A stretch of DNA of 62,601 bases, filler included, from Kipferlia bialata (Eukaryota), in NCBI GenBank assembly GCA_003568945.1. It is 2 parts of 2 records of this genome, joined end to end, with 100 filler letters (N's around TTAATTAATTAA, not from the genome) between each part and the next. Parts side by side here need not be neighbours in the genome. Positions count along the whole stretch, not along the records: positions 1 to 31,271 come from BDIP01000109.1; 1 more part is not named here. One strand, 5' to 3'. Below are positions 1 to 62,601 of the stretch, in pieces. The notes beneath the pieces were generated by a model. That model saw only the letters and a program-made list of their open reading frames with translations, was not told the origin of the DNA and ran no database searches. The translations under genes and the position numbers were made by a program. Position 1 is the first letter of the stretch. The number at the start of each line of letters is the position of its first letter.

Positions 1-63
<63 letters not shown>

Positions 64-73
64 CTACCCCCAG

Positions 74-157
74 GTGTGTCTCTGCCATGACCTCTGCCAT
101 GCAGTCCACACCGGTCAAGGGCATAGGGGTGGGAAAGAAGTTAGAGGTATATATACA

Positions 158-194
<37 letters not shown>

Positions 195-640
195 AAGTGT
201 ATATATAGTGGTGTATTTATATAGTCTATGTCATGCAGTCCACCCCGGTCAAGGGCATTGGGGTCGGGAAGAAGCTGGAGGTACGCATACTCTTGATGTG
301 TCAACATATTATGTGTGTGTGTATATTCTCTTTGGCTTAACTATATTTGTTCTCACCTTCCAGGTCGTCCCTCCCAACGTCTCCTTTGCAACAACCCTGG
401 ACGCCATGCAGGTATGAACACCAATTGCTACTCGATACAAGATACGCGGAGGTGTCATTGTTTCCATGCACTCCTCACATAGTGTATGATGAGATATTAC
501 AAAATGTCTTTCCCACTCACCCTCTAGCAGCGTCTGCGCCCCACCGTTGACCTCATGTCTCTATTGTGCTGTGCATCTCTACAGCACAGGCACTTGGATG
601 TGCTGGAGAGTGAGACAGGACTGCCAGTGTTAAGGTACAT

Positions 641-671
<31 letters not shown>

Positions 672-1615
672 ATATGTATATATATGTATGCACCTGGATG
701 TGCTGGAGAGTGAGACAGGACTGCCGGTGTTAAGGTATCTATATATAATAATAGATACTATATAGATATATGTGAGAAGAACATTTACCTTGATGTGCTG
801 GAGAGTGAGACTGGGCTACCAGTGCTGAGTATATACATGTACTAACGTACATACTAGATGAGGTGACCCCCACCCAGATGGTCCATTAGGGATATGTATA
901 TTCTTATATATTCACTACGTCATACATCACGTATACATATATATATATATATGAATATACTAGTATTCCTTACTTCAGGCTTGATGAGGTGACCCCCACC
1001 CAGATGGTCCATGAGGGAGGCCTGGACCACTTGGAGGCCATCAGGGAGTCAGTGGCAACAGCCAACGAGGAGGCAGAGGTATATACACGGCCTAGTAGTA
1101 TATACATATATACTTATATATATATGTGTGTATATGACTGTCTGAAGGCCATCAGGGAGTCAGTGGCCACAGCTAACGAGGAGGCAGAGGTACAGTATAT
1201 GTCTATATATATTATAGTATACATACATAGTGTGTGCATATTATTAGAAGGCTATTGGAGAGTCAGTGGCCACAGCCAACGAGGAGGCAGAGGTATATAC
1301 TATACACTTGTATATATGTATGTACTATTTTCTATCCCTGTCACTCACTCTAGGTCGAGACTAGACTTGATGCCTGTGAGAAGGCCATGAACTCATGGAC
1401 CAGTGACATATGCACAGACAGGTGTGTGTAAATAATAGTAATACACACACATATAAATTTGTATACCTGTATATATGCATACTAGTATATATGTATATAT
1501 CTCTGTTAAGGCCATGAACTCATGGACCAGTGACATATGTACAGACAGGTATGTGTATATATACATTGGTATATATATATGCATACATATATAATTATAT
1601 TCATTTGAGTATAAC

Positions 1616-1646
<31 letters not shown>

Positions 1647-3190
1647 CTATATATTATGGTCATGAACTCATGGACCAGTGACATATGCACAGACAGGTGT
1701 GTATGTTTACACTTGTATATATATGTATATATGCATTCTCACCCTCTAGGATAGTTGACATTGCCGCCAGAGGCTTTGGCCCATGGGACCTCAGTGATGG
1801 AGGGTTTGCTCTACCTGCACACTTCTTTGAGACACTCAGGTACATTGACCCACATATATACCATATGTACATATATCCTCAACCACATCTATTGTAACAT
1901 TTATGGACACGTATACTAATTCACATTCTGTCAACCTTTCTTTCTAATCTCCCAGGTCCATTGCCCTGTATGTCCAGAGGGACGTGGGGTCCAAGTATGC
2001 CGCACCCATCACCACAAGGTACGTGTGTATCTACACATGTATAGCCAATTTGATTAGTTAGTATATTGTTTTAAATCAGTATTGCAGGAGTATTCATTGT
2101 AGTATATATAGGTATCTATTCATTCAATCTCTATATTATATACATATCTCACTACTAATTCATATCTCACTAATTTGTAATAAGACTTACCCCCCAGGGC
2201 CAGGGCCGTTGAGAACACCATGCTCTGGGCCATGCACTCAGGGTCACTACTGAAGTGAGTATTCTACTCTATGTGGTAGTGTATACTACGCGATTAGTAT
2301 GTACTATACATATACATACATATATGTCTATGCTCTGGGCCATGCACTCAGGGTCACTGCTGAAGTGCGTAGGTGTAATATATAGTATCTGTATTGTATA
2401 ATACATTGCATATATGTACATATATGTCTAGAACACCATGCTCTGGGCCATGCACTCAGGGTCACTTCTGAAGTGAGTATACTACGCGATAGGGCATCAT
2501 CTATATCTTACGTGATTGCTATTGACCTTACTCCCAGGTGTGCCCAGCAGTATATCTCAGTGGGCAGCATCTTAATGACTAGCTCCAGTGCACACAGGGC
2601 AGTGTACTCTGGCGCTATCAACAAGGTGCCTACATGTATTCATATCGCCTATATTCTCTCTGGTACTTCTTGAGTAAGAGTATCAATATATACCCGTCGC
2701 GTAGTATCTCACCCCCAGTGGTACTCTCTGCGCAAGAGTGTGAAGCGGCTTGCCAAGAGCAGACTGCTGGACGTGCTGATGGACACGGACTTCAGCGAGA
2801 ACGTGCATGCCATTGTGGCATCACTCTCACCTACAATTCAGGTCTCAGTGTTCATATTCATGTTTGTCTCCCCCTATTGGTATTCCTATCCTCCAGTGTA
2901 TCTGTCTCTCTCTCTCTGTCTCTCTAACCATAGACCCTTAGCCACCGTAGCATGCACGACACCCTCCTAGCCTCCAGTGGAGATGGCACCGAGACATCAC
3001 TGAGGGGACTCATGACTATACCAGCCAAGGCTACCTATATTCAGGTACTCTCTCTCTCTCTCTCTATCACTACGTGCATATCATTCTTACCCACTAGGCC
3101 ATTCAAATGCGCCATGTCCCCAAGACCATTCTCTCTCTCTCTCTCTCTCTCTCATGTATAGGCGCCTCAAATGCGCCCTGTCTCCAAGAC

Positions 3191-3235
<45 letters not shown>

Positions 3236-3272
3236 ATGTATAGGCCCCCCAGATGCGCCCTGTCCCCAAGAC

Positions 3273-3305
<33 letters not shown>

Positions 3306-3517
3306 ATGTATAGGCCCCTCAAATGCGCCCTGTCCCCAAGACCCTTCTCTCTCTCTCTCCCCCTCTCTCTAATGTATAGCCCCCCCAGATGCGCCCTGTC
3401 GCAACGGCCCTAGTTTTTGAATATATGTATATATTTATATATATATATGTGTGTGTGTGTGTAATCATCTAACCTCTAGGCCCCCCAGATGCACCCTGTC
3501 CCCAAGACCCTAGTTTC

Positions 3518-3549
<32 letters not shown>

Positions 3550-6500
3550 GAATGTGTACTCTTACCTCTAGGCGCCTCAAATGCGCCCTGTCCCCAAGAC
3601 CCTGGTCTCTCAGTGCAAGGAGGGGGAGATGTATGTCCCCTATGCCCCAGTCACACTCTTCAACGTGGATGGGTTCATAGTCGCTAAGGTGCACACTATA
3701 TGTTGACTATATATACAGATATACCGTATATGTAAGGTTGTATTCTAGGTATTTAACACCACGTCCCTGGTCAGAAGAAGTCCTCCACCTCCCACTGGTA
3801 TCTGTCCTATTAGAAGTCTATATTAGTATACTCTATCTATAACACTAGATCCCAGGCCATAAGTCCCCGACCACCCTAACAATCACTCTCTCTCCATCTA
3901 TAATAGACATATATATGGTTTGTAATTCTTTGTATCTAACACCAGGTTCCCGGTGTAAAGAAGAAGAAGTCCCCCACAACCCTTGATGATACCCATATAT
4001 ATATGTTATCTAACTATGCTATAAGATCAATGGTAATACTTACACCAGGTTCCTGGCATTAAGAAGAAGAAGTCCCCTACAACCTAATAGCATCTATATA
4101 TGTCTAAGCACTCCATTGGATCTATATACTGTAAGTACTCTGTTACTGATTACAGGTCCCAGGCCAGAAGAAGAAGAAGTCCCCCACCACCCTGGAGGAG
4201 GGAGATGAGGAGGAGGAGGATGTGTGGGAGATCACGGGTGTGACATCAACAACGCGCATAGCGGCGCAGGTACCTACTCTTTGCCATTCTCTCAATGTAT
4301 ATATTGATATGCATACACATCCCACCCCAGGCTGACCTTCTGCGACTGAGGGACAAGGTGCCTCTGTCAGAGGTCAGAGGCCTCATTCCAAGGTATACAT
4401 GTGTATACATATATATATCTACAGTATGTAATACATGTAAACTGATACATATACTCTATATATACATATATATACCATATGTAATGTACTATGTGTATAT
4501 GGACAAGGTGCCCCTGTCAGAGGTCAGGGGCCTGATTCCAAGGTATTCATATAAATATATATATATATACATACAGTATGTAATATACCATATGTATACT
4601 GTTTGGTGCCTCTGTCAGAGGTCAGGGGCCTTATTCCTAGGTACAATAGTGTATACATATACTATTTAGAGCCTCCCTGTGTGACACAGTAGCACACGAC
4701 AATGATAGTACCATGTATTCACTTTCTCACAACTACTGAATTTCTATATACTCTCTACTTCTTACACTTAGGGATGTGCGTGCATCCATGCGTGACTCAG
4801 TTATACATACCACTGGCTCTGTTATTCACATATACTTACTACATATACATATATATATACTAATCCCTAGGGACGTGCGTCAGTCCATTCGCGACTCTGC
4901 CATCTCCGACCTATATGTATATATATATACTTGTACACTATACTAGTATACTAATCTCCAGAGATGTGCGTCAATCCATGCGCGAGGCAGTAGTGCATGA
5001 CACCGACTCTGCCATCTCTGACCTGGAGGCAGATGAGATGGATGCATTCTGGACAGGACACACCTATCACGCTAAGCATACAGGTATATATACACTATGT
5101 ATATAGTGTATATAGTATATATAGTGAATATATATGTATGTATATAGGATGACCTAGGGGCATATGAGATGGAGGGGTTCTGGACAGGGCATACCTATCA
5201 CGCAAAGCATATAGGTATATGTATATAGTGTGTATAGTATATATACTCTGTATGAGATGGAGGCAGATGAGACGGAGGCATTCTGGACAGGACATACATA
5301 CCATGCAAAGCATACAGGTATATGTATATAGTAATGTCTGTACCAGTTGCTGTACAAAAGTATCTGGTACTGACCCCAGCCCTCAACGTGTATGTGCATG
5401 ACCTGCTGAGGAGGGCCACAGTGTATATAATATATACATATAAATATATACATTACATATATATATACAGCATATTAACCCCAGCTCTGAATGTGTATGT
5501 GCATGACCTGCTGAGGAGGGCCACAGTGTCACCAGAGGGGGTTGCATCATTGAGACACGCTGTGAAGGCAAGTATTATGTGTATAGTGTATACTATAGTA
5601 TATGTGTATAGCACTATATACATGGTGTCACCTGAGGGGGTGGCATCACTCAGACACGCTGTGAAGGTATATATATATACATGATATAGTGTACAATAGT
5701 ATATATATATATGGGTATATTAGGATGTAGAGTGTCACCTGAGGGGGTGGCATCACTCAGACACGCAGTGAAGGTATATATATATATATATATACACTAT
5801 ATATATACTATATATATTCTAAGTATATACTATATATTGTCAGAAGTGTATAATTAGATGTACAGTGTCACTCGAGGGGGTGGCATCACTCAGACACGCA
5901 GTGAAGGTATATATATACATATTAGTATGCAAGTAAATTTAACTCTCGTTATGTATATATACATTTGTATGTATTTACTGACCCCCAGGACATCCTTGCC
6001 CAGATACAGCTACCCGAGTACAGACAGGACAGGGCAGACGACAGGTATATAGAAATACATGATATGTATTACTATTTGTATTGCAGTGTATAGTATGGTG
6101 TGGTATATAGGATATTGTATCAACTGCCCGAGTACAGACAGGACAGGGCAGATGACAGGTATATATATAGTATATGTTTAGTATATATATAGTATAGGAT
6201 AGTATGTATGTATGTTATACAATGGTAACAGGGCAGATGACTTGTGAGATACATGTAAATATGTCCCGTATCTTGGACATACTATATATACATACACGCC
6301 ACTAATACTATATGTACTAAAATTGTCCGAGTGCACTACTCGTGCCCTAGTATATACCCATCGATATATATATATACACTAACAATAGATACCTCTGCGA
6401 GGTCCTTGTACCCGAGTGGACTACTCATGCTCTCTCTTTCTTTCTCTCTCTCTCTCTCCAGATTCAAAACCTCTTCTCACCTTAGGTATCTCTGCGAGGT

Positions 6501-7231
6501 CCTTGTACCCGAGTGGACCACCCGTGTACTTGGCAGGGTACAGGGTGACACGGTGCATGTGCCTGTGCTCAGTGTGCCATGTGTCTCTAGATACATGTTC
6601 CAGTCAAAGGTAAACCGCGTAACTATAGGATCGCGTAACAATCTTTGTGGAGTAGTGAGTATATTTTCAGTGTGCCATGTATGTCAAGATACATGTTCCA
6701 GTCAAAGGTAAACCGCGTATTATGTGTAATCGTGTAGTTTCATATAAGAAATAGTATATATACTATATATACTGTACACTAACTGTAGGCCCTCTGCTAT
6801 TCCTCTATGGGTGTGCACCACAGACACATTGTCAATGACTGGCTGGGGGCTGTCAATGCGGCAGACTTAGGGTCAGGTATACATACATACATACATACAG
6901 TATATACAATACATAGAGAGAGAGTGTGTATATTCATATATATTAGACACATAGTCAATGACTGGCTGGGGGCAGTGAATGCTGCTGACCTGGGATCAGG
7001 TACATGTATTGGGGATGTGTTTTCCAGCCATGCTGGTATATTCAGTGTGTGTCTCACATCCAGACGCGTATATGAGTATACGTGTGAGTTTACAGTTAGA
7101 GATTATATATCTAACCTCAGCTGCTGACACCGACCAAGCATCATCCCTCCTCGAGAGTGACAGAAGTACAGACCAGTTTGGAGCATTATTGGCAAAGGGG
7201 GTCACGCTAGGTATGATAGTAATGTGTATAT

Positions 7232-7269
<38 letters not shown>

Positions 7270-7330
7270 GAGCACAGATCAGTTTGGGGCATTGTTGGCC
7301 AAGGGAGTGACACTAGGTATGATAGTAATG

Positions 7331-7371
<41 letters not shown>

Positions 7372-10300
7372 TGACAGAAGCACAGACCAGTTCGGGGCAT
7401 TGCTGGCAAAGGGGGTGACATTAGGTATGTGTATATAGATAACATGGTAAGTGTCTATATCGTATTACTTATACAGACAATGTAGCTGAAGAGTATTCTC
7501 CTGTGCACCTCTCACCCCCAGGTGTCTGTAGTATATTGTATATTATATAATGTATATTGTATATTGTATTGTATATAGTTCCAATGTTTATCAGTATACT
7601 GTAGTATATATGTATATATGTGTATATGTCCACTCACCCAGGTGTCTGCAATGCAGTGGGTGCAGGGATAGGCAGCACGGGCAGATACATGCAGCAGGTA
7701 CAGCATACTCTATATACACACACATACTTATGTATTAGTGTATATATATACATCTATATACTGGGATAAGCAGCACGGCAGATACATGCAGCAGGTACCA
7801 TAAACAGGATACTTATTTACCCATGTATATGTTGATTGATTAATGTATGTATATATATATATGTATATTGTTATACTGAGAGGCAGCACAGGCAGATATA
7901 TGCAGCAGGTACAGCATATGATACGATATACTTTACAATACATATGCGTGTGTATTGTTATAATGGCTTAGGCAGATACATGCAGCGGGTGCCACATACC
8001 CTTTAATATATATGTATTTAATATATATGTAATAGTGTACTAATTATTCATATGCATGGCCCTTTGTCATTGATTATATCCTCTCTATCTCTCTCTCTCT
8101 CCCCCCCCCCCTCCCATCCCCCATCCCAACTCCCCATCTATTACTATCCAATATCAGCTTTGTCATGAGTTAGGCATGGCCCCCTTTGTCATGAGTGCCA
8201 ACCAGCACCCAGACCCAAGGTGTGTATATACACATATACATGCATATATGCATATATACCTAGTGTGATAGTATCAATGGTATATATACATGGCCCCCTT
8301 TGTCATGATATCCAACCAGCACCCAGACCCAAGGTGCGTATGTATGGATATATATGTAAATACATGATTGCTGTGAAGTTTGTGTTTGTATATGCATATG
8401 TCCTGACGCACCAGAATGATGGCTTGCACCATCTCCGACCTCCTAATGTGTACTGCATAAGTATATATACTACTTATGCTATACCTTACGATACTATATA
8501 CGATCTGTCCTGTAACTTTAACCCCAGAATGATGGCCTGCACCATCTCCAACCTCATACTGGAGGGGCACCTGGTCTACCTGATAGGGGTGGAGGTGAGT
8601 ATAAATATGGATACTCCATCATACAGCCTAGCAATTCTAGGCTAGCGTCCTAGCGAATATATATATGAACCATATATTAAATGTATGGTCCTACGTATAT
8701 GCATGTATACATGAATATATCACTTGTCTCACCTCCAAAAAGCCTTCCCTCCTTGCACTTCTGATATATGTATATATATATATACATATCAATTATAGTA
8801 TTGACTATGTACTATACACATCTCGTGTCTAACCCCCAGAATGCTTCTCCCGAACTCTTGGCCCTCCTCGTTGACATCACCAACACACTCAGGCTGGGTG
8901 GGGAGTTCCCATACGCCAAGGGACCAACCATACCACACGGGGAGGTACATACATATACACTTACATCTATATATTCATACTTGTGGTATACTTTGATTCT
9001 ATATATCATTGGAATTCCCATGCGCCAAGGGACCCACGGTGCCACATGGAGAGGTATACTTCTATTCTTATACTCTCTTGCTCTCTTTACCAATTGTAAT
9101 TGTACTGACTCCTCACCCCCCAGTCCCCTGACTCTGATCTGTGTGTTGTCAGGAACCCCCTTGGTAAGAGTGCCCCCCACCCATCAGAGCACACAGTGGG
9201 GGCACTGGCATTCTACTTGCCAGGTAACAATATATAATATATAGTATATATATAGTATATATATATTGTATAAATAGTATATTAATGTACATATATACAT
9301 ATGTGAGTGCACCCCACCCATCAGAGCACACGGTGGGGGCACTGGCACTCTATCTGCCGGGTATGATATATGTTCATCTAGTTCATTACTATTGTTCCTA
9401 CGTTTCCATATCGTTTCTTACCCTCAGTCCTGGTGCCTGGTCCCTTTGTGATACCCGACCACCTGCCCAAGGACTGTGCCATCAGGTATTTATATACATA
9501 CACACATTCTAATGGGTATATGTTTCATATTAGAATGATATTTAGACACACATGTATACAAGCATATATATGTAGAGAGAGAGTAGTGGTATTAACCCCA
9601 GATACATTGATGTGCGTCGCCCCCCCGAGAAGCTGAGGTTCATACCCAAGTGCACTGGAAGGCCATGCCTGGCACTGAGGTATCAATATATATATATATG
9701 TATATATATATTGATACTATGTACACATATATACAATGTACATATGTACTATATACTGGGGGTTCATACCCAAGTGCACTGGAAGGCCATGCCTGGCACT
9801 GAGGTAGAGATACCTAGTATATGTAGAGTATAGAGCACATATATGTGTATATATACGTTCGTATCTCACTTCAGGACCACCTGTGCAGCAGCCAAGCCCC
9901 AGATATATATAAATATGTCTAGAAATAGTATTCATATGTATAGTCTATCCATATATATATATATATACATGTATACATATACCTTACTCTCCAGGACCAC
10001 TTATGGTAGTATACATATATATATATATGTGTATACATACGTTCGTATCTCATTTTAGGACCACCTATGCAGCAGCCAAGCCCCAGATATTCCTGGACCC
10101 CTCTGACGTGGCCATAGCAATGCGGATTAGGTATATGACAGCAGCAACCTTGTACTCACATTTTGTTATGGGTTCAGATACTCTATATCTACCAGTGTGG
10201 ATATCTGCATTGTCTGAGTCCTAGGGACGAGGGTGACTATGAGTTAGGAAGTGACGCTAATGCTGACTCATATATATATATATATACATATGCTGCAGTA

Positions 10301-13163
10301 TATGTATATATATGTGCATAGTCTATGTCTAACAAGTAGGGATGAGGGTGACTACCTTGGTGGGAGTGATGCCGATGCTGACTCTGAGGCAGAGGCAGAG
10401 GGCGACAGCCCAGAGACTGCAGTGTACAAGTACCTGTCCATGTCATTCAGACCCAGTGACAGGTGTGTATGGTATAGTATATACATATATATCATATGTG
10501 TGAGACATATATAGTGAGTCTACAAGTACCTGTCGATGTCATTCAGACCCAGTGACAGGTAATAGTAGAGTGTATTACAGTATTAATATATATATATAGC
10601 ATATGTGTGAGAAATATATAGTGTACACAAGTATCTGTCAATGTCATTCAGACCCAGTGACAGGTATAGTGTGAATATATAGAATTTCATATATATATAT
10701 ATATTTACCTGTATATACCTGTCCATGTCATTCAGACCCAGTGACAGGTATAGTGTGAATATACATATATGTATGATATATATATATACATAGAGAGATT
10801 CATGACACATATCCACATACATTGAGAGGTGTTCATATTGCTGTGTAAATTCTCACTCTTCAGGGAAGGCCTGCTCTCTGCTGTGTCTGCTGCCTCTATC
10901 CTGATATATCACCTATACATATATAATATGTATATATATATATATCTTAATATAGTATATTACTACTTACTATCAGGGAAGGCCTGCTCTCTGCCGTGTC
11001 TGCTGCCTTTGGGTCATCCATAGACGGGGAGAGACAGGTATATATATACTAACATATATGTATACATGTATACATATATGTATATATGTATACAGTATCA
11101 GTTATGTACATGTATGGTGTCTGTAGCGTTTGGGTCATCCATAGACGGGGAGAGGCAGGTATGTATATACATATATATGTATGCATGTATTCAGTATCAG
11201 TAATGTATACATATATAGTGTCTGCTGCCTTTGGGTCATCCATAGACGGGAAGAGACAGGTATAAGCTCTAGACTCTAGTGTTTCAGTATACACTGCCCC
11301 CCCCCTGACACATGTTATATATTATATATAGTAGACTAATGCTAGGAACCTGTCCCTGACTATGGCCAGTCCCAGGGCATTCTGTCTGGAGAGGGTGTCT
11401 ATGCAGCCAAGTGGCTAAACGCACTGCTGGAGACACCGGATGCTAAGGTACCTCACTATCTATATATATATATACATATCAGTCTATGTGTCTCATACCT
11501 AGGTTCAGATTCAGCCTCCTGCATCACTGAGCTTGCCATATATCTACCTACATACATATCTATATATATATATATTTATGTGTATGTATAGTATATACTA
11601 ATCTCCAGGGCTGGATCCAGTCCCCCTGCATCAACACTGGCATTGTCATACACACACATATATATAAATAGTCTCTATTTCCCAATCCATATATCTATAT
11701 CTGCATTACACTCATCTCCAGGTCTGGATCCAGTCCCCTTGTATCAACACTGGTCTTGCCATTGTCCAACATGCAGCCAGGGAGAGTGGGGCATCTATTG
11801 ACTTCAGAAGGTGATTCACACAGATGACTTTATATCTATGTCTAAATGATTATGTATAAGATATATTAACTATTAGAGTATTTTTGTATATGTCAGGGAG
11901 ATTGAGGCCAGCATTGATTACTGGGATTACACATCTATCTCTATAAGTGTGTATCAATATCTCCATTCACTGACCCCAGACACCCCAATCACATTGTAGC
12001 TACATATGTAGCACATACCAGTACCACTATATCATATGCTATTATATATGTATCTATGTCACTGATTCTAGGCACCCCAGGTTGAGATGCCCAGAGAGAG
12101 ATGTTATATACATGTATAATCTAGTAATATACATGTATATATATATATATATATATATGAATATCTCTGATACTGACACCAGACACCCTAATGAGGTCGA
12201 GCTACCAGTATTGACTATAGGCGGCATGTGTATATGTAACTTCTATAATAGATTTGTAAATTTGGTGCCTAGTGTATTTACTGACCCCAGACACCCCAAC
12301 GAGGTCGAGCTACCACGCAGGGGACTCAAGTCAGCAGACTGGCAGGTACTGGTCTCTTACAGTACTTCTACACGATACATGACCAGCCACTTCTTAAAGC
12401 TTCACGATATGCATAGTCTCACCCCCTAGGTCATCGACATGAGGTTTGACACGAATGGCACCACCTGTGGATATGAGGCAGAGGAGCAGGTATAGATATG
12501 TACTATAGATACATAGTAGTATATACCCTATATATACAGTATATGTACTATTAATGTTTCTGTATCCCCTGTGGATATGAGGCAGAGGAGCAGGTATAGA
12601 TATTGATGTTTACCACATACAAATAGTATAATCTATAGATCTGTGCTTCTATAGATCTCTCACCTGTGGGTTCCAACTATATATAGTCGTCTACTCTTTG
12701 CTACTCACCCCCAGGTTGCACAGCTGTCCAGGATGTTCAGAGTGGCAGGGGGGCAGGTAGGATATATATATGATAGAGACCCTGTATATACCTGTGATAC
12801 CAATTCATACCATACTATATACTATATATACTCTATGTATGTCCAGGATGTTCAGAGTGGCAGGGGGGCAGGTAGGAAGAATACTTAGTATCTACAGTAG
12901 AGATACAGTATATAGTGTATGTATATATATACTATAATAACTATACTAAACATGTCCAGGATGTTCAGAGTGGCAGGGGGGCAGGTACTGATTGTGATGA
13001 TACGGTATCTCTAACATTTTTCGCCTTCAATTTCTTTAACTGCATATGTGTCCTTTTACAGGTTATGTGCCTAACATATCAGCGCAGCATCATGATCAGC
13101 CCGACCTTGCCTACCCACAACCAGTACATGGTGCACACACTCAGGTATGTATCGGCATACGTA

Positions 13164-13198
<35 letters not shown>

Positions 13199-43338: not shown

Positions 43339-46300
43339 TATATACCATGTAATAATAATAGTGACCTCCGGGAACATATGTATCCATCATATGATATGGT
43401 ACACACATACTATGCCAATCATGAATCCTCTGGATGGAATGCCCAGCTCCCATACACAACTGCACTTACTATCATATAACACATACTATGCCATTCATCC
43501 TATATAGTACCTCTGGATGGAATGCGGCCCAGCTCCTTCGGGCCACCTTCAAAAGCCACGAGAACCTGAGGACTAGGTCAAGGAGCATGTACACAGGGTA
43601 CACCCACTTCCTGGGGGGAGGGGGTAGGGATGGGTGGACATTTGTATGGAACTCACATCGCTGTGAAACATGAGGCCTCTCTAATACATACACACAAACG
43701 TATATATATACCCACGAACACTGACCGTGACACCTGATACACACTGATGCATTCACTGGCTAATACTCTGAGTATATTTGTACATCTACCAGTACATATA
43801 AATATATAGCATACCTGTGGAGCAGGGTGCCCTTGGCATCTGGGGATGCACACAGCAGCCCACAGTCTGTCATGTCCCACAGATAGCAGTACATGGACGC
43901 AGCAGACCTGGGGTGGATATCAAGTATAATCCCCTCAATATTCTGTAACTGTACAATTGTATATATACAATAGTGTTGATGGAAGCCATCGTGTCTCAAA
44001 TACACTTGAACCCACATGACACTCCGTATGGTACTAGAATATACATGTATACTACATATCTACCCACATCTACCCACCTCGCAAACAGCCAGAGGTAGTA
44101 GTACACGGGTGCCCCCTGGGTCTCAAAGAGCAGGAAGCAGACCCCAGCCAGCAGCAGCAGGGTGTACTTGCCCATAGAGGCCAGGTGGGGGAAGCACCTC
44201 TTGGTCTTGGCCAGTAGTGACATGCCCTGCAACAATCTGAACAGGGCAGGCAGCATCACAACCAACGATGTGGACCAGCGGGATATGCCTATGCACGCAT
44301 CACTCGGGTGGGTGGTGGGGCCGTAGAAGGGGTCCGTGTAGGTGCCCTGCGGGTTAGCAATATATATAGGCATCAGGGGTATGTCTCAGGTGTGTATGGT
44401 ATTGAAGATCAGTGTCACTGTCATCCTTGGCACAGCTTTTCGGCTCAACTGAACATATACAAATACAAATATCTATCCATATTAATATGCATATATATCA
44501 GGAAGCAGGTATTAAAAAAAGAATTCTGACGTATACCATAACTATAAAGGAAGAGCACAATGAATATTCAGATATACCTTCACTATCTCGCACACTGACC
44601 ACGTGATGTCACTCAGTGACTGTTGGTACGAGGTGAGGGTCCTAGGTTAGAGGGTCTAGGTGGAGGATGGATATGGACCATGCACTACCTGTACAACAAC
44701 CATGGGTACATCTCTGCATTGATACACATTAGTATGCATTCAGCACTGTACATACACTATGTACAAAAGGAGCACTCACTAATGTGTACTCCATCTGTGA
44801 CAACTGCTATAGTATGCACTCACTAATATATATATATTTATACATGCACTCACTCTGTGACAAAGAAGTCGAAGAACCTGACCCGGGAGAAGGGAAGGGT
44901 GGCCCATTTGGCACAGACCTGGGGTCAGATGGGGTAGATAGTGGGTGCATGTTACACACGATACATGACACGTGATACATCCCGGGTGACAAGGCATAGA
45001 CATGCACCATCAATCTCTGTGAAGCCACCCATTCTTGGTAGCAATGCAAGTGTCAGTAGCAATAGTGTCAATCGTTAGTGTCAATCGTTAATGTCAATCG
45101 ACATGCCAGTCACACATCAGTCTCTGTATACATAGACGGTACACCTTCTAGATGATACACTGTGTTCCTAGTATTTACTATTGAAATAAACATATATACA
45201 CGTATACCTCACATACCCACTACCCACCTTCCAGAATGATAGCCGGGCCCCCGAGTGGAATACATGTAGGGGCACTGTGAACAGGACTAGGAAGGACGCA
45301 AAGAGGACCAGGACAGGATAGCCAACAGGCCAGGGCTCCCTGGGAGGTGAGGGACAGATATACAAAGACAGATAGACGGATAGACAGAGAGAGAGACTCG
45401 CAATGCCTGCAGAGACGCTGGTAGTATACATGGATTATCACCTCTCCACCCATAAACCATTACACTATCCCTTTGTAGAAAGCACACTTGTGTTGACTCC
45501 AGTATAGCACTGCATCTATAGCTATATATATACAGACATATAGATATATATATATATATATATATATATCTGCACCTGAACTGGGTGTTGATGGCCTTGA
45601 GCAGGAGGGCTATGCCAAAGGCTGCCAGGCAGGAGAGATAGACCACACTGAGCATCCCGGCCATCTTGGACAGTTGGACCTGGGGGGTGGGGTATATGCA
45701 TATACAGGCAGAGGTACATGGACGGATGCAGGGTGGATAGAGAACGGCACAATGGACACAATAGAAACAACACCTTCATAGAGTGATCATTGCCACCTTG
45801 GAGGACCTGGTTAGATATATACTGATCTATGTACCAAGATATAGAGAGGGAAGGAGGGAGATATACCACTAAAAGATGGGCCGTACATGGGTGAGTGTCC
45901 TCTTCGGATGGAGTTCCATGACAAACACATGGTTGATCTCCTCCTTGGCAAAGATGTGCACATCTGGTGTCATATATATATGTATATGATATATGTAAGG
46001 TATATATGTGCACATCTGGTGTTATATATATGATATATATATGTGATATATATATATGTATGCACATCTAGTGTCATATGTATATGATACATATATGGTA
46101 TATATATATGTACATCTGGTGATATAAATACATATATGTATGTATATGTGCACATCTGGTGTTATCTCTATATATGTGATATGATAAATATGATATATAC
46201 GTGCACATCTGGTATCATGAGTGGACATCACGTACTCACTACACTGAATATATGAACCCACCTAGAAGGGACACTATCTGCTCTCTGCCGTATAGATGGA

Positions 46301-50917: not shown

Positions 50918-50921
<4 letters not shown>

Positions 50922-53612: not shown

Positions 53613-53734
53613 ATGGACGAAGTTGCTGCGGCACGTGCTGCAGCCAAGGCAGAGCACAAGAGGCTATGTGCCCAGGGGGATGAGCTGAAGATTGAGACAC
53701 CCACTGGGCTCATATCAGGCACCCTGGTAGACAG

Positions 53735-53776
<42 letters not shown>

Positions 53777-55156
53777 CCTTCTCCCCTTGCCTGCCTTGTC
53801 TATATTGCAAGTGGGCAGTATTTATAGGGTCAAGTCTTGTATCCACTCGCTCTTTTTCATTTTCTTTCTCTCTCTGCCCCCCCCACCTCAGTGTGTGCAT
53901 ATATATATATGAGTGTCAATATCTTGAATGGACTCCTCTCTCAACTCTCTCTCTCTCTCTCTGCCTGGCAAGGGTGCAGATACCAACCCCTCTCAACACA
54001 TCTATCTACATATATTTACATATACTTATGTATATCCTATGGATATTCATCACTCACAATAGGTCTGACAAGGGTACAGACACCGACAACACCCCAGGGT
54101 CCAGAGGAGACATTGCCATCATGATACACGGGCTGGTATGTGCAGGGTATTGTCCATAGAACAGTTCATTGTATATATAGTGTATATATGTATAGAGAGA
54201 GGGAGAGAGAGTCTTTCCACTCTACATCTCCTGGGGTTACCAAGATATATATTTGTTTTCCTCTGACCTCACAGGGCTCCCACAGCAACATGCGCTTCTT
54301 TCCTTCTTTCCATTATGTATGTATGTATATTATATTATAAACTAATGTACTATCTGCAATTATAGATTTTTCACCCTGGGCTCCCACCGCAACTTACGCT
54401 TCTTCCCATGAACATACTAATACCATATGCCACAGTCATGTATACACATGAATATACCCTGTGTGTTCTTATGCTTATCCCAGGGCTCCCACCGCAATAT
54501 GCGCTTCTTCCCCATGCTGGCAGACACCCTGCCGGCATCGTCATACAGGTGTGTATGTATATATGCATACTAATACTGTGTGTGTGTCTGATATACGGAA
54601 ATATGACCTATACTAACCCCAGGTTTGACATCCAGGGCCATGGCAAGAGCACAGGGGAATTCAGGTGAGATACATATAGATATATATGTATATATACATA
54701 CAGATATATATATATATATCTGTAGGTTTGCATATGTATCTATATATCCCTCTGTCAAGGATATGGCCAGAGCACAGGGGAGTTCAGGTGAAGCTAGCTA
54801 CTGTAACACCTCTTTCTCTCGCTCTCTGGACAGGAACGTTCAGAGGTTGCCGGGACTATAACGTATACCCCACCTTCTCTCTCTCTCTGTCTCTCTCTCT
54901 CTCTCTAGACCCTTACTGTCAGCCTCAGTTACAAGCGTGATGTGGAGACCATGGAGTACATCCATCCTCTATCTCTCTCTCTCTCTCTCTCTCCCCCTCT
55001 CTAGACCCTTAATATCAGCCTCAGTTACAAGCGTGATGTGCAGACCATGGAGTACATCCACACCTTCTCTCTCTCTCTCTCTCTCTCCCCCTCTCTAGAC
55101 CCTTATTGTCAGCCTCAGTTACAAGCGTGATGTGGAGACTATGGAGTACATCCATA

Positions 55157-55190
<34 letters not shown>

Positions 55191-55246
55191 AGACCCTTAT
55201 TGTCAGCCTTAGTTATAAGCGTGATGTGCAGGTCATGGAGTACATC

Positions 55247-55290
<44 letters not shown>

Positions 55291-57973
55291 AGACCCTTAT
55301 ATTCAGTCTTAGCTACAAGCGTGATGTGGAGACCTTGGAGTACATCATCACACACCTCGAGGGGATGGGGTTCAGTGTTACCGATCTCATAGGTATATGG
55401 TTCATATATACATATATACTATATACTAATGAGTATCATCACACACCTCGAGGGGATGGGGTTCAACGTGACTGATCTCATAGGTAAATATATATATACA
55501 CATACACACATATATACTAATTTATGTATTACATATATATCTACTATATGTACTATATATATATACTATATACATATGGTTACATCATCAGACACCTCGA
55601 GGGGATGGGGTTCAACGTGACTGATCTCATAGGTATATATAGTGTATATTCTGATATGTATATACTTACCTTCTATGGGTAAATTAATATATAGTGCATA
55701 TATATATATGTAGTTACTATCTCTATAGGTCATTCTAACGGTGCCAACATTGTGCTGAGCATGCACCAGTCGCCTAACCATATGTATAGATATAGATATA
55801 GATATAGATATAGATATAGATATAGATAGATAGATATACTGGTAAAGAGGATGTAGCTCTCATATTTACATATATACGGGTATATATGCTTACAGGTAGG
55901 CCACTCCAAGGGTGCCAACATTGTGCTGAGCATGCACCAGTCACCCCTGCCATCACTCAGACACCTGTTCATATGCTCAAGCAGGTACATAGGCACATAC
56001 ATAGTATATATACAAATATATATGAGTATAGGTACATATATGTATTAATATGTATATATAGTATCGCCCCTGCCCTCACTCAGACACTTGTTCATATGCC
56101 CCAGCAGGTACATAGACATATATATGCACATATAGATTGTGATCGATACTGCCCCCCTCCCCTCTCCCCTAATCCACACTGATATATCCCTGTCGTATTC
56201 CCGATATATGTACAAGTATCTTCTTAATTCCTCTCTCTCTCTCTATGTTCCTCTGTCTCTCCCTCTCACCCCTGTCCTCACCCTCCCAGGCACGACATGC
56301 TCGGCAGACCCAAAGGTATGTATATCAATATATATATATATATATAGGGAGAGACAAAGGTATGTGGATGTAAGTTGGGGCACTCTATCGCGTTTCTCTC
56401 TTTCCCTATTTGCGTCTCTCTTGATTCATCGCTAACAGTATATCGTGCCTTCTTTCAGTATACATATAGTATGAGAAATAGAATATTTCAGAATACATAT
56501 AGTACAATAACCTTGATATAGTATAAGTATTGTATAGTATCTCTCTCACTTTCCAGGCCGATACTCCGATGCCCAGCGCAAGACTCTGGCTGAGACTGGA
56601 TGCTTCAGACACACATTCAGCAAGTATGTATATATACTGTATAGTGTATACATATATATATATACAGTATATTCCAAATAGTAATTTCTTTGAGATTGAA
56701 AGCTTCACTGCAAGTACGCATGTATTGACTACAGTACTTCCTATACATATACCACTGATATCTTGACCCCCAGGTACACTGGAGAGGTCACTGTGCGTGG
56801 GTGTGACATGAAGGAGAGGGAGCAGGTATCCATATGCCATGCCCAATTCTATATACCACACTCTATTCAGAGCATATTATATAGTGTATGTGGGTGTGAC
56901 ATTGTCAGTGTCTGGACTCCTAGATTGACATGTATACTTCTTCTTGACTGGTCCTGACTGCTCTTGACTTCTATTGACCCCTTCCCAGATTGACATGGAC
57001 CGTGACCACCTTGCCAAGTGGGGGGAGAGAGAGGCCAGGAGGGCACAGGAGGGATACACTCCCTTAAAGGCCACAGTGGTCCATGGGAGGTATATATTCT
57101 TTAGTAATACTATTCATATATATGTATATCATATGACATATATATGTGAGAGAGAATATCAGTATCGCTTGAGGCCACTATCGTGCACGGGGAGGTACAC
57201 TCATACATTCACATACTCTCGTATGTATCCTATATAGTGTAGTCCATTCTTCTATATACTTGCTCCTTTGTATATTTCTATTTCCAGCTCTAGATACCTA
57301 TTTTCTGTATTACTTATACTTAGAGCTGATACACTCATCCTCTATGCAGATGCAGAGTATATCAGTATCAGTATCACTTTCTGTATACATACATTATTGA
57401 TATCCTTATATATATTTTACTCACATTAGGGCCGATACCGTCATCCCCTATGTGGATGCTGAGCGCATCAGAGACGGACTGGAGAGGGTGGGGGTGGCAT
57501 GTGCGCTCTTCCCACTAGGTACTTGTATACTACTCTATGCTATGCTATACAATACTATACTATACTATACTATACTATACTATGTATATACTGTATTCTA
57601 TGGAGAGGGTGGGGGGTGGCATGTGCCCTATATCCACTAGGTAAGGATTGCATATCGCATATATACTGGACAAATACTAGGAATATATGAAGTGTGTACA
57701 TTGTATATATGTCTTTATTGTATATATGTCTATACATCCGTAGATGGACATGTATATGTACTATATATGTATTTCCGAAGCAGTCTAACCACAGGCCCTC
57801 CCAAGGCAGATGGAGTGGAGGGGGAGAGGGAGGGAGAGATTGAGACCCCCCAGATAGGGGAGGTAGAGGGAGAGAGAGAGGAGGAGGAGGAGGAGAAGCC
57901 CTGTGACCACATGTTCGCAGGGTACGAGAAGGCAGTGGCTGACATTGTAATGGGGGTTATCAACGCTAGATAG
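53613..57973 (+). CDS. Alpha/beta-hydrolase fold protein (serine esterase-like)
   Basis: Spliced product has IMIHGLGSH, RFDIQGHGKSTGEF, nucleophile GHSKG (about 55900-55915), acid HGRADTVIP and His CDHMF. TAG at 57971-57973. Confidence 0.88.
54900..55306 (+). repeat. Four tandem units of about 95 bp: (CT)n + branch + AG + about 40 nt of the next exon
   Basis: Echo starts at 54923, 55019, 55113 and 55207. The full exon (SLSYKRDVETLEYIITHLEG...) starts at 55307. Confidence 0.92.
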
Positions 57974-58348: not shown

Positions 58349-60334
58349 CTAACGGAGACCGAATCCCTCGCTGTTGCCAATGGCAATCAGAAGCTGCTCA
58401 CGAAGAACATCCTTGGAGCTGGGGTGAGTACATATAGACAGAAAGAGAGAGACAATGAGACCTGAGGCTAATACATATACGTGTATATATGGTGAGAGTG
58501 GAAGAGACAGACACACGCATACCTGTAGTCCGGTATCATGAGGGCACTGAAGCACACGTGGGAGGTGGGGAGTCTGGGATGAGAGGATGGTACCTAAAAC
58601 ACAGACAATATATATAGCTATACTACCATCTATAGCTGTAGGTCACATACATAGGTAGTAGACATGCATGTACATGGTACATATAACTTGTCAATGCCCA
58701 TACCTGTCATCCTCCACCCCGTTCCTGACAATGATGAACTGCTACATTAATATATAAATATATATATGTACATATATGTGATGGTATATTCTATGTCTAC
58801 TATACCTGTCATCCTCCACCCCGTTCCTGACAATGATGAACTGCTGCTTGGAGAGACCGCCTGACTGTCAGAATACAATATATATATATGGAAGATATAT
58901 ATATATATGGAAGAAAAGTGACTGTATGAACTGCCGCTCAGAGAGACCACCTGACTGTAAGAATACATAACCAAACTATATAGAGCGACAATACAAAGAC
59001 ATAAAACAATGGTGACTGTAAGAACTGATACACTATGTCATACCTACTGGTGCCCTGTCACTCCCGCACACACCAACCAACCAATCAATCAATAGACAAA
59101 TGAATCAATCAATCAATCAATCAATCAATCCATTAATGATGATTACTCACCTACTGGTGCCCTGTCACTACCACACACAAACTTGAGCAGTTGTTTCTGC
59201 TGCTCTGGGGTCATGTCATGCACAATCTCCCAGAACCACAGGACTGAGGTGAGTATATATTATATAGACATAATGATATACATTATATTATGAAAGATGT
59301 ATATATATGAATATGAATATATAGGTCATGTCATGCACAATCTCCCAGAACCACAGGACTGAGGTCAGTATATGCGGTTATATTATATATATATACTTAT
59401 AGGAGAAGTGGAGAAGTGAGGTTAAGTATATAGAAACAGATATATAGATATATATGTATCAAATGCTGTGGTCATGTCATGCACAATCTCCCAGAACCAC
59501 AGGACTGGAATGAGTATATATTACATATACATACAGATATATAATATAATGTGAAAGATGTATATACATGTATATGTATATGGGTCATGTACAATGTCAT
59601 GCACAAACTCCCAGAACCACAGGACTGGAATGAGTATATACGGCTATAATAAATAATTATAATCATATCAAGAGTGGAGAAGTGAGGAAAAGTATATAGA
59701 AACAGATCTATAGATAATGAATTCAGAGGTCATGCACAATCTCCCAGAACCACACGACTGAGGGTGAAAGTACGGTTAATCACCAAAACAATATAGAATT
59801 ACACAAAACATTCAATGTATTTCATTGTATGTAAAAGACAAGGACCATGCACATTCATACCATACCTATCTTGTGGCTGGCATATGTTTCTAGAGTATAC
59901 ATCTACTATATGTCATACCTATCTTGTGGCTGATGTGGTACCCACCATCAAATATAGTTATATATAGGTATACATACAGGTATATATAGTACATACAGTA
60001 CACACAATAGTATACAATACCTATCTTGTGGCTGATGTGGTACCCTCCATCAAATAACCATATATATGCATATATACATATGTATAGGTATACAGTACAT
60101 ATAGCATATGTATACCATGTATCCTACCTATCTTGTGGCTGATGTGGTACCCTCCATCATACTTGGTGACACGCTCCAGGGCCTGGGGAGTGAGACTACG
60201 AAATGAATATATTTATATATATAATGATAATGTGCTATTAAACACACATGAACATATAACCATACCTTGAAGTCGAGTGTCTGTTCTCCACACACTATCA
60301 GCTCCATCTCCTCGGGTCTGAAGAAGGGGGGGCC
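58349..60334 (-). CDS. HECT-domain E3 ubiquitin ligase, C-terminal part only (UBE3A/HERC-like)
   Basis: Exons splice to [106 protein letters not shown]. The catalytic Cys and terminal Phe are retained. Confidence 0.92.
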
Positions 60335-61137: not shown

Positions 61138-62601
61138 ATGCTCGCTCTGATCGTACTTGCGGTGGCTGCTCTGGTGTATGGAGCCCCCATCCACATTCTG
61201 CACACCACAGATGGTGAGTGGGAGTGGGTATGGGTCCCTCTATGCTTGTCGTTGCCCTTTCCTCACCCCCAGTGCACTCCTGGGTGGACGCACACCCTCA
61301 CAACTCAACCCTGAACGCTGATCTTGGCTCCTTTGTGTCCTTCTCCGAGAGGTTCAGGACCATGGCCCTGGGAGACGGGGATGACGTGCTCATGTTTGAC
61401 ACAGGCGACTTCATCCAGGTATGCCTTCATACTCAGTAACCTACAGGGGTAGGGGGTGTTAGCGTAATATATGGGTAGGTATGGTGGTGGTGGAAGGGCA
61501 GGGTTGGATATGGTGCATGACAGACCACAACGTATACATAGTGTTCCTGACCACATCTGTTTGTCCAGTACCCCATGGCTCTCATGTGCCTCCCCCCCGC
61601 CCTCTCTCTCTCCCTCTCTTTCCCCTTACCCCCTAGGGCACTGGCTTCAGCGATGCCTCTGAGATTGTTGGTCAGTATGCCTATGATGTCACCACCAACC
61701 TGGCCTATGATGCACTGACAGCTGGGAACCACGACATATCGGTGAGTGGGGCGGATATACATGGGTAGATACTACTAACCAGTATGCTGGAAGATATGGG
61801 TCGTTAACAGTGAGCGTAGTTGGGTGGGTATCCGCCTAGTGGTTACGGTATGAGTACTGTCACCATCCCATTTCTGCCCCCCATGCATCTATCCTGTCAT
61901 ATGGATACTTACCACCTGGTTTATAGAGATATATATAGATTGTAAAAGTATATACCTACTATGCCGCTCTCCCTCACCCCCAAGTTGATGACAGTGTGGA
62001 CAACAAGGATATATACATATGCATAGTGTATATATTGCGTGTCTATATATAGTATACCGAATCATATGTATATACCCTTATACCAGGTTGATGACAGTGT
62101 GGACTACATGGTGGACACCTTCATCCCCCACTGGGGCAACACATTTGTCACAACAAACATCTACAAGGTATGATGCATGGATATATTGGATGTATGTACT
62201 AATGCATATATATCCAGGTTATCTATAGATTCTGACATTCGGCACAACAAACATCTACAAGGTACACTGAGTAGATAGATAGATAAGATATATATATGTA
62301 CTAATATAGTACATATATATATACATATGGTAGTGCCCATATGGCCCGGATATATGTACTGACATTCGTCAGATCAAACATCTACAAGGCACACTGAGTG
62401 GAAATGTGGGCTACATGTATTATTCACACTAATTCTACTTAATATATATGTCTCTACCCATCAGGATGGCGACTACCTGGGTGTGCCCTACCCAGACACA
62501 TATCTCTCCCTCTCTCTCTAATTTTTCTCTAATCTGCTACATATACATCCAACCATCAGGATGGCGACTACCTGGGTGTGCCCTACACTGTGATATTCTC
62601 T
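61138..62601 (+). CDS. Secreted calcineurin-like metallophosphoesterase / 5'-nucleotidase (YHR202W-like), 3' incomplete
   Basis: Signal-like MLALIVLAVAALVYGA, then ILHTTDVHSW, ADLGSFVSF, MFDTGDFIQGTGFSDA, YDALTAGNHDI and HWGNTFVTTNI. These contain the DxH, GD and GNHD metallophosphatase motifs. Confidence 0.85.

What the first reader, a model, noticed from the sequence alone, without database searches (positions are those of the whole stretch)
6822..6999. 55-nt echo with eight of eight substitutions silent
Exon end 6822-6876 and echo 6945-6999 both encode RHIVNDWLGAVNAADLGS. Changes are att/ata, gct/gca, gtc/gtg, gcg/gct, gca/gct, tta/ctg (two bases) and ggg/gga. At a 40% silent expectation, 8/8 has probability 0.4^8, about 0.0007. 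This example was picked by eye, so it needs a pooled test.
Basis: seen in the sequence. Interest (0 to 1): 0.75.

Follow-up and report, generated by a model that had tools for sequence, protein, structure and literature searches.

The report
Introns filled with borrowed exon ends
Most introns of a long gene in this protist hold 30-65-base copies of the neighbouring exon's end, splice site included, that differ from the exon mainly at silent positions; they are likely fragments captured from other working alleles by recombination, which would make one genome a record of extreme population diversity.

Summary
Confirmed and far wider than reported. 6945-6999 repeats the last 55 bases of exon 6789-6876, and all 8 differences are silent. 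It is one of 122 echoes in a 90-exon, 2617-codon reading frame; 65 of 89 introns hold one. 3' exon ends with GT lie downstream, 5' ends with branch point and AG lie upstream. Pooled divergence is 214/820 at 4-fold against 116/3054 at 0-fold sites (ratio 0.15, null 0.5, p 2e-28), and echo-versus-echo differences are silent-biased too. A spliced contig skips all five echoes between exons 13 and 15 and carries the exon letters. The few replacements look like neutral decay (GC-to-AT bias, stops, frameshifts), while silent divergence is direction-neutral and does not track that decay. Best reading (0.55): echoes are born from, or overwritten by, working exon ends of other alleles in a hyperdiverse population, and then decay. 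Rival (0.17): low-level use by a non-canonical copy jump. A protein 100% identical to a window ORF is labelled Kipferlia bialata. No description was found in nine paper searches. RNA at the focal echo and a second strain were not available.

The parts
6789..6876 (+). Exon 19 of the long gene (ALCYSSMGVHHRHIVNDWLGAVNAADLGS); its last 55 nt (6822-6876) are the echoed part; GT donor at 6877-6878
   Evidence: AG/GT ends and phase fit the 90-exon frame
6877..6944 (+). Spacer: first part of the intron, TACA/AG/TA microsatellite-rich; no visible match to the intron behind the echo beyond GTA
   Evidence: read by eye
6945..6999 (+). Focal 3' echo: 55-nt copy of the exon end, 8 of 8 differences silent
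7000..7120 (+). Echo's own GT donor (7000-7001) and the rest of the intron with branch point and AG
7121..7210 (+). Exon 20; it has two 3' echoes at 7259-7316 and 7367-7424 (9 of 11 and 8 of 8 differences silent)
74..31009 (+). Long gene, 90 hand-curated exons, 7852 nt, 2617 codons without a stop, open at both ends; 122 echoes at score 30 or more (75 downstream, 47 upstream); no Pfam family at cut-off in 14 exons tested
4156..5083 (+). Exons 13, 14 and 15, joined at GT..AG in a 7769-nt contig of run X2 with 0 other letters, skipping two 3' echoes and three 5' echo pieces
53613..57973 (+). Alpha/beta-hydrolase-like gene (GHSKG motif; label from recall), 12 exons, 14 echoes, 4-fold 21/76 and 0-fold 24/360
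58523..60334 (-). HECT-ligase-like gene end (label from recall), 5 exons, 9 echoes, mostly near-identical (4-fold 3/30, 0-fold 4/196)
61273..62388 (+). Phosphoesterase-like gene start (label from recall), 3 exons, 3 short echoes without silent bias (4-fold 0/10, 0-fold 5/54)

Best explanation
The echoes are half-exons with their splice site, laid head to tail inside introns and skipped in the mRNA where tested, and they were likely copied from working alleles on other chromosomes of a very diverse population. Shown: polarity, splice-site retention, silent excess in exon-echo and echo-echo pairs, decay-like replacements, and skipping at exons 13-15. Inferred step 1: a staggered exchange or one-ended repair between diverged homologues joins intron DNA of one to a point about 40 nt inside the exon of the other. 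This adds a unit of about 113 nt that spans one splice site. Inferred step 2: only such one-site units survive, because a half-exon lacks a partner site, and the first donor and last acceptor stay in use. Inferred step 3: echoes are the only long homology in these microsatellite introns, so unequal pairing and conversion with exon ends of other alleles multiply and refresh them. Silent differences are then allelic diversity that selection had already filtered, and replacements are decay since the last copying.
For: Pooled 4-fold 214/820 against 0-fold 116/3054: ratio 0.146 against 0.5, p 2e-28; nearest echo only, 151/564 against 73/2136, p 1e-23. Echo-echo ratio 0.22, and echo-unique changes 66 at 0-fold against 108 expected if neutral, p 1e-14. 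0-fold changes run GC-to-AT 50:21, while 4-fold changes are even, 67:60 (Fisher p 0.016). Across 92 echoes the 4-fold dispersion is 1.13, the 0-fold dispersion 1.68 and rho 0.11; one-clock simulations matched to the 0-fold spread give rho 0.37-0.46, P 0.005 or less. Stops 4 against 6.2 expected; 7 of 7 internal gaps shift the frame. GT kept in 64/68, AG in 37/40; branch motif 35/40 against 79/89 at real acceptors and 128/1011 at other intronic AGs. Of 16 echoes with 0-1 differences, 3 have a flank in the top 1% of controls and 11 rank above 0.1. Toy simulation: cis conversion gives ratios 0.62-0.69; donors from other chromosomes with piS 0.18 give dS 0.22, dN 0.043, ratio 0.19, rho -0.02. Crossing-over favours exons in hypervariable Schizophyllum (PMC4209137, abstract). 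Fornicates lack NHEJ and Rad51A and have two Dmc1 (PMC8516963, passages).
Against: No second allele or strain was seen. The X2 contig over exons 13-15 is single, with 0 other letters at 82% likeness, and two metagenome scans gave no relative. The model needs silent diversity near 0.2, at the top of the known range (0.20 in S. commune, PMC9187340, passage), and sex or exchange between homologues, which was not tested. The simulation parameters were chosen by me to fit. A one-clock model with little age spread (gamma shape 4) is not rejected, P 0.22. Replacements lean slightly conservative (35% against 29%, p 0.08). The replicate genes are weaker: ratio 0.26, p 0.013 in 26 echoes, and one gene shows none. 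The length cap of 68 nt even in exons of 100 nt or more is unexplained.
Confidence: 0.55

Rival explanations
1. Echoes are used. A non-canonical jump between the two direct repeats, in the RNA or as DNA excision in some copies, puts the echo in place of the exon end in a share of products, so selection keeps its protein sequence and splice site.
For: Silent excess in all pair types; splice sites and branch motifs kept; narrow echo lengths and shared break points within arrays.
Against: The X2 contig carries only exon letters and skips five echoes (contigs drop rare forms). Only 6 of 107 echoes offer an in-register GT..AG jump, none with a branch motif. Stops and frameshifts are not purged. The fall in replacements near the splice site vanishes with stronger trimming, 20/847 against 21/828. 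Echoes with a dead site are no more decayed, 4/137 against 80/2238, with low power.
Confidence: 0.17
2. Donors were a few diverged lineages or gene copies (past hybridisation, homeologues or paralogues since lost), not a continuum of alleles; the echoes are scars of exchange between them.
For: Fairly even silent distance across echoes (dispersion 1.13) suits fixed donor distances; echo density is patchy along the window.
Against: No second copy at 82% likeness or more in X2 over exons 13-15. Echo-echo silent distance (0.27) equals exon-echo distance (0.26), and 18 of 345 4-fold pair sites show three states, which asks for more than two donors. The HECT-like gene has near-identical echoes.
Confidence: 0.15
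3. Assembly artefact: haplotypes of a mixed culture were laid in tandem through microsatellites.
For: Draft scaffold with gaps and repeat-rich introns; laying X1 returned no genomic contig over the tested stretch, so order and copy number are unverified.
Against: X1 contigs hold 0.97 of 1001 sampled words of 4000-13900, while 8.3% of 31-mers there span the non-homologous end of an echo, so most such joins exist in that run, which may be the source sample. Stops, frameshifts and dead sites in echoes do not fit live haplotypes. RNA shows one version.
Confidence: 0.07
4. Plain tandem duplication in cis with neutral decay; the silent example is cherry-picked.
For: Some arrays are near-identical units with shared spacers (exon 12 upstream; HECT-like gene); 7 of 68 and 5 of 38 flanks match their own exon's flank best of 87 controls.
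Against: It predicts a ratio of 0.5 or more (0.62-0.69 with cis conversion); observed 0.146, and 0.22 between echoes. CpG context does not explain it (non-CpG 4-fold 148/623).
Confidence: 0.04

Closest known systems
Human F7 intron 7 37-bp VNTR (PMC1557585, abstract seen)
   Same: Tandem copies span an exon-intron boundary, so the true donor is followed by intact pseudo-donors that stay silent; the most upstream site is chosen.
   Different: That is one minisatellite at one junction with identical sites. Here 65 of 89 introns carry echoes at donors and acceptors, the spacers are mostly unlike, and differences are silent-biased.
Intron gain by tandem genomic duplication or double-strand-break repair (PMC3296678, passages seen)
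   Same: Local direct repeats at exon-intron joints, likely made by recombination or repair.
   Different: No new intron is made here: an existing intron grows by units of about 113 nt; the repeats are 30-65 nt, against the 5 bp or more searched there.
Mutually exclusive exons from tandem exon duplication, such as Dscam (recalled, no call)
   Same: Tandem exon-like copies with silent-biased divergence.
   Different: Echoes are half-exons with one splice site; the longest covers 84% of its exon; the focal echo is out of frame with both authentic donors.
Exon-biased crossing-over in hypervariable Schizophyllum commune (PMC4209137, abstract and outline seen)
   Same: Conserved exons serve as the homology islands for exchange between diverged alleles.
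   Different: The abstract describes ordinary crossovers, not retained duplicated exon ends.
Silent donor cassettes for gene conversion (pilS, vls, VSG and chicken V pseudogenes; recalled, no call)
   Same: Partial, unexpressed copies that keep coding character through exchange with an expressed copy.
   Different: Echoes sit inside introns of ordinary genes, keep the amino acids rather than vary them, and flow is inferred to run mainly from exon to echo.

Membership tests
Mutually exclusive or cassette alternative exons | Each copy has its own acceptor and donor | tested here: not met
   Branch motif plus YAG near the start in 1 of 67 3' echoes; the focal echo has only TTCAT, the nearest motif at 0 of 89 real acceptors
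Mutually exclusive or cassette alternative exons | Inclusion keeps the frame | tested here: not met
   Joining exon 18 or 19 to 6947 gives stops; only cryptic GTs inside exons give open routes; unit period mod 3 is 40/37/30
Mutually exclusive or cassette alternative exons | Copies appear in mRNA | tested here: inconclusive
Junction-spanning repeat with silent pseudo-sites (F7 IVS7 type) | Repeat unit spans an exon-intron boundary and keeps the splice site | tested here: met
   68 of 75 reach the exon end with GT in 64; 40 of 47 reach the exon start with AG in 37
Junction-spanning repeat with silent pseudo-sites (F7 IVS7 type) | Innermost site is used, outer sites are skipped | tested here: met
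   Shown for exons 13-15 only; inferred elsewhere from the open frame
Junction-spanning repeat with silent pseudo-sites (F7 IVS7 type) | Whole units are near-identical minisatellite repeats | tested here: not met
   Flanks rank in the top 5% of controls in only 17 of 68 and 12 of 38 echoes
Intron gain by tandem duplication | Donor in the first copy and acceptor in the second define a new in-register intron | tested here: not met
   6 of 107 echoes have an in-register GT..AG, 0 with a branch motif
Recursive splicing sites (recalled) | A branch point and AG directly before a regenerated GT, with saw-tooth intermediates | not testable with these tools
   No raw RNA reads were offered; it would not explain codon-level constraint
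Allele capture by recombination between homologues | Echo letters segregate as exon alleles in the population | not testable with these tools
   No second strain found

The most novel reading that the evidence does not exclude
Echoes are working spare exon ends: a repeat-guided jump outside the GT-AG rules, in RNA or in DNA, swaps them in for the exon end, giving each gene many silent-variant versions and keeping thousands of half-exons under protein-level selection.
Probability: 0.15. Interest if true: 0.93.

Novelty: new variant of a known kind. Interest (0 to 1): 0.76.

Why it matters
Junction-spanning duplications are known as single loci. Here they are the main way introns grow: median 308 nt with echoes, while 21 of 24 echo-free introns are 49-116 nt. 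If the best reading holds, one genome stores samples of other alleles next to each exon, so diversity, sex and recombination could be measured in a lineage with no population data and no NHEJ. The introns are also a natural test of splice-site choice: intact decoy donors and acceptors are skipped by a spliceosome reported to keep 87 of 174 studied proteins (PMC6679479, passage). Gene finders can be misled: my automatic model took echoes for exons.

Tried and rejected
No whole genome is held. No RNA holder was listed; X2 came as a same-sample addition whose RNA status is a guess, though its contig is spliced. X1 gave no genomic contig over 4000-5092, so the DNA check there is empty. Pfam: no family at cut-off in 14 exons. 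Homologue search with exon 80: none. Metagenome scans: no relative; one 20-base hit that is a chance match in GC-rich, intron-free DNA. A gradient of replacements away from the splice site (29/1156 against 54/1176) was rejected as an alignment-end artefact. Depletion of GTR behind 5' echoes (11 of 40) is confounded by G-poor intron ends; strong donors G|GTR do not differ, p 0.70. Searches used a wrong frame for the hydrolase-like gene (one search gave ratio 1.41) and for the HECT-like gene; corrected by open frame and recalled motifs. Rows dropped: 9 of 131 hits scoring 26-29, and one over-extended hit (31159) left out of echo-echo pairs and. Look-ups of earlier findings by place and by the first word set were empty.

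Full report
Observation. The finding is as written: 6822-6876 and 6945-6999 align over 55 nt with 8 differences, all silent, and both copies are followed by GT. The echoed part is the 3' end of an exon at 6789-6876.

Setting. The window is a eukaryotic draft sequence with gaps. Its introns are rich in TA and TC runs and have a branch motif close to the AG (79 of 89 acceptors). A database protein 100% identical over 95% of the ORF at 50918-51376 is labelled Kipferlia bialata. That ORF lies beyond the gap and spacer at about 31.3 kb; the first half is assigned to the same organism only by its like intron style. An automatic model took echoes for exons. Hand curation gave 90 exons from 74 to 31009 that read as 2617 codons without a stop, after one off-by-one fix. 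A 7769-nt contig of run X2 joins exons 13, 14 and 15 at the predicted GT..AG sites with 0 other letters, and its loose ends read as exons 12 and 16. X2's share of words, 0.14, matches the 0.137-0.150 expected from exons alone.

Anatomy. Aligning each exon to its two introns gave 131 hits at score 26 or more; 0.9% of 683 control alignments reached that score. I used the 122 at 30 or more. Of 75 downstream copies, 68 reach the exon end and 64 of these keep GT. Of 47 upstream copies, 40 reach the exon start, 37 keep AG and 35 have a branch motif, against 128 of 1011 other intronic AGs. 65 of 89 introns hold an echo. In 14 of 14 introns with both kinds, the 3' echoes come first. The site-to-site period has a median of 113 nt and no preference for multiples of 3. 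No echo exceeds 68 nt or 84% of its exon. Flanks beyond the site are only partly homologous, about 49% against 31-36% at positions 5-8 behind GT, and are often unrelated even when the echo has 0-1 differences. Three other genes show 26 more echoes, all with the same polarity. The 22 kb between them has few.

Pooled test. Differences by codon position are 77, 61 and 330. 4-fold sites differ at 214 of 820, 0-fold sites at 116 of 3054: ratio 0.146. A neutral copy beside a constrained exon gives 0.5; p is 2e-28. The result holds for both echo kinds, with ends trimmed, for nearest echoes only and without the focal echo. Echoes of one exon are not independent, so the p values are generous. Echo against echo gives 0.22, where a neutral history would give at least 0.5. 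The replicate genes give 0.26 (p 0.013), and one of them shows no bias in 3 short echoes.

What the pattern says. Each echo has spent most of its divergence as working code. Yet replacements look like decay: GC-to-AT 50:21 against 67:60 at silent sites, 4 stops against 6.2 expected, 7 of 7 gaps frameshifting, and splice dinucleotides lost in 7 of 108 echoes, close per base to the 0-fold rate. Silent divergence is even across echoes, decay is uneven, and the two are barely correlated; a single clock with matching spread is rejected at P 0.005 or less, but one with little spread is not. This points to birth from an already diverged working copy, then decay. No such second copy shows in X2 at exons 13-15, so the donors are most simply other alleles. 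In a toy simulation, conversion in cis gave 0.62-0.69, and overwriting from other chromosomes at high diversity gave 0.19 with dS 0.22 and dN 0.043 (parameters mine).

Mechanism, inferred. A staggered exchange between diverged homologues duplicates a stretch that spans one splice site. Units with two sites would be spliced in and removed by selection; half-exons are tolerated. Exon ends and echoes then pair out of register, which copies and refreshes echoes and uncouples them from their flanks. Fornicates lack NHEJ and Rad51A and keep two Dmc1 (PMC8516963, passages), and crossovers favour exons in a hypervariable fungus (PMC4209137, abstract). Both fit but do not test this. The needed diversity is at the known maximum (PMC9187340, passages).

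The focal AG. It is the AG of the Arg codon, out of frame with donors 18 and 19. A weak TTCAT precedes it; open routes need cryptic GTs and would delete or repeat peptide. Its use in RNA is untested.

Literature. Nine searches (listings only, except as named) found no account of such echoes in this lineage. The species' genome paper has 0 hits for 'duplicat' and reports only intron counts in its overview (PMC5874029, passages and section 12; supplements not opened). PMC6679479 has 0 hits for 'duplicat' or 'tandem'. The closest case is the F7 intron 7 minisatellite (abstract). The library lacks most subscription papers. An earlier AI note reports junction copies in a sea-urchin gene (unchecked).

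Verdict. Real, dense in two stretches of the window, and a new variant of a known kind of duplication. The silent signature is the surprising part. Allele capture 0.55, low-level use 0.17, lost diverged copies 0.15, artefact 0.07, plain cis duplication 0.04.

Noticed in passing
window 31273-31371: Run of N with a 12-base all-frame-stop spacer in its middle; it looks like an artificial join, so the two halves may be unlinked contigs.
   Followed up: no
window 31400-53500: Several intron-bearing genes with very few echoes, between two echo-dense stretches; echo density is regional or gene-specific.
   Followed up: partly
window 5568-5569: Exon 16 uses a GC donor (GCAAGT) while its three 3' echoes carry GT; the GC site is still the one that fits the frame.
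   Followed up: partly
window 22601-22637: Chimeric echo: a piece of exon 65 fused to a piece of exon 66, as if the intron between them were skipped.
   Followed up: no
window 4872-4912: 5' echo of exon 15 in two collinear pieces with an internal deletion.
   Followed up: no
window 54924-55246 and 24578-24754: All echoes of an array share an amino-acid difference from the exon (L>M in 4 of 4; D>E in 2 of 2), so the exon or a shared donor carries a replacement.
   Followed up: partly
window 50918-52947 (-): AMP-binding (PF00501) acyl-CoA synthetase-like gene; a database protein is 100% identical and a paralogue 72% identical.
   Followed up: partly
window 45947-46224: Six short tandem copies of a GTGCACATCTGGT-like core at about 50-base spacing in TA-rich DNA.
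   Followed up: no
window 74-31009: The 2617-residue partial protein has no Pfam family at cut-off in 14 exons tested and no homologue found with one exon; the X2 contig reaches about 2900 nt further upstream than the window.
   Followed up: partly
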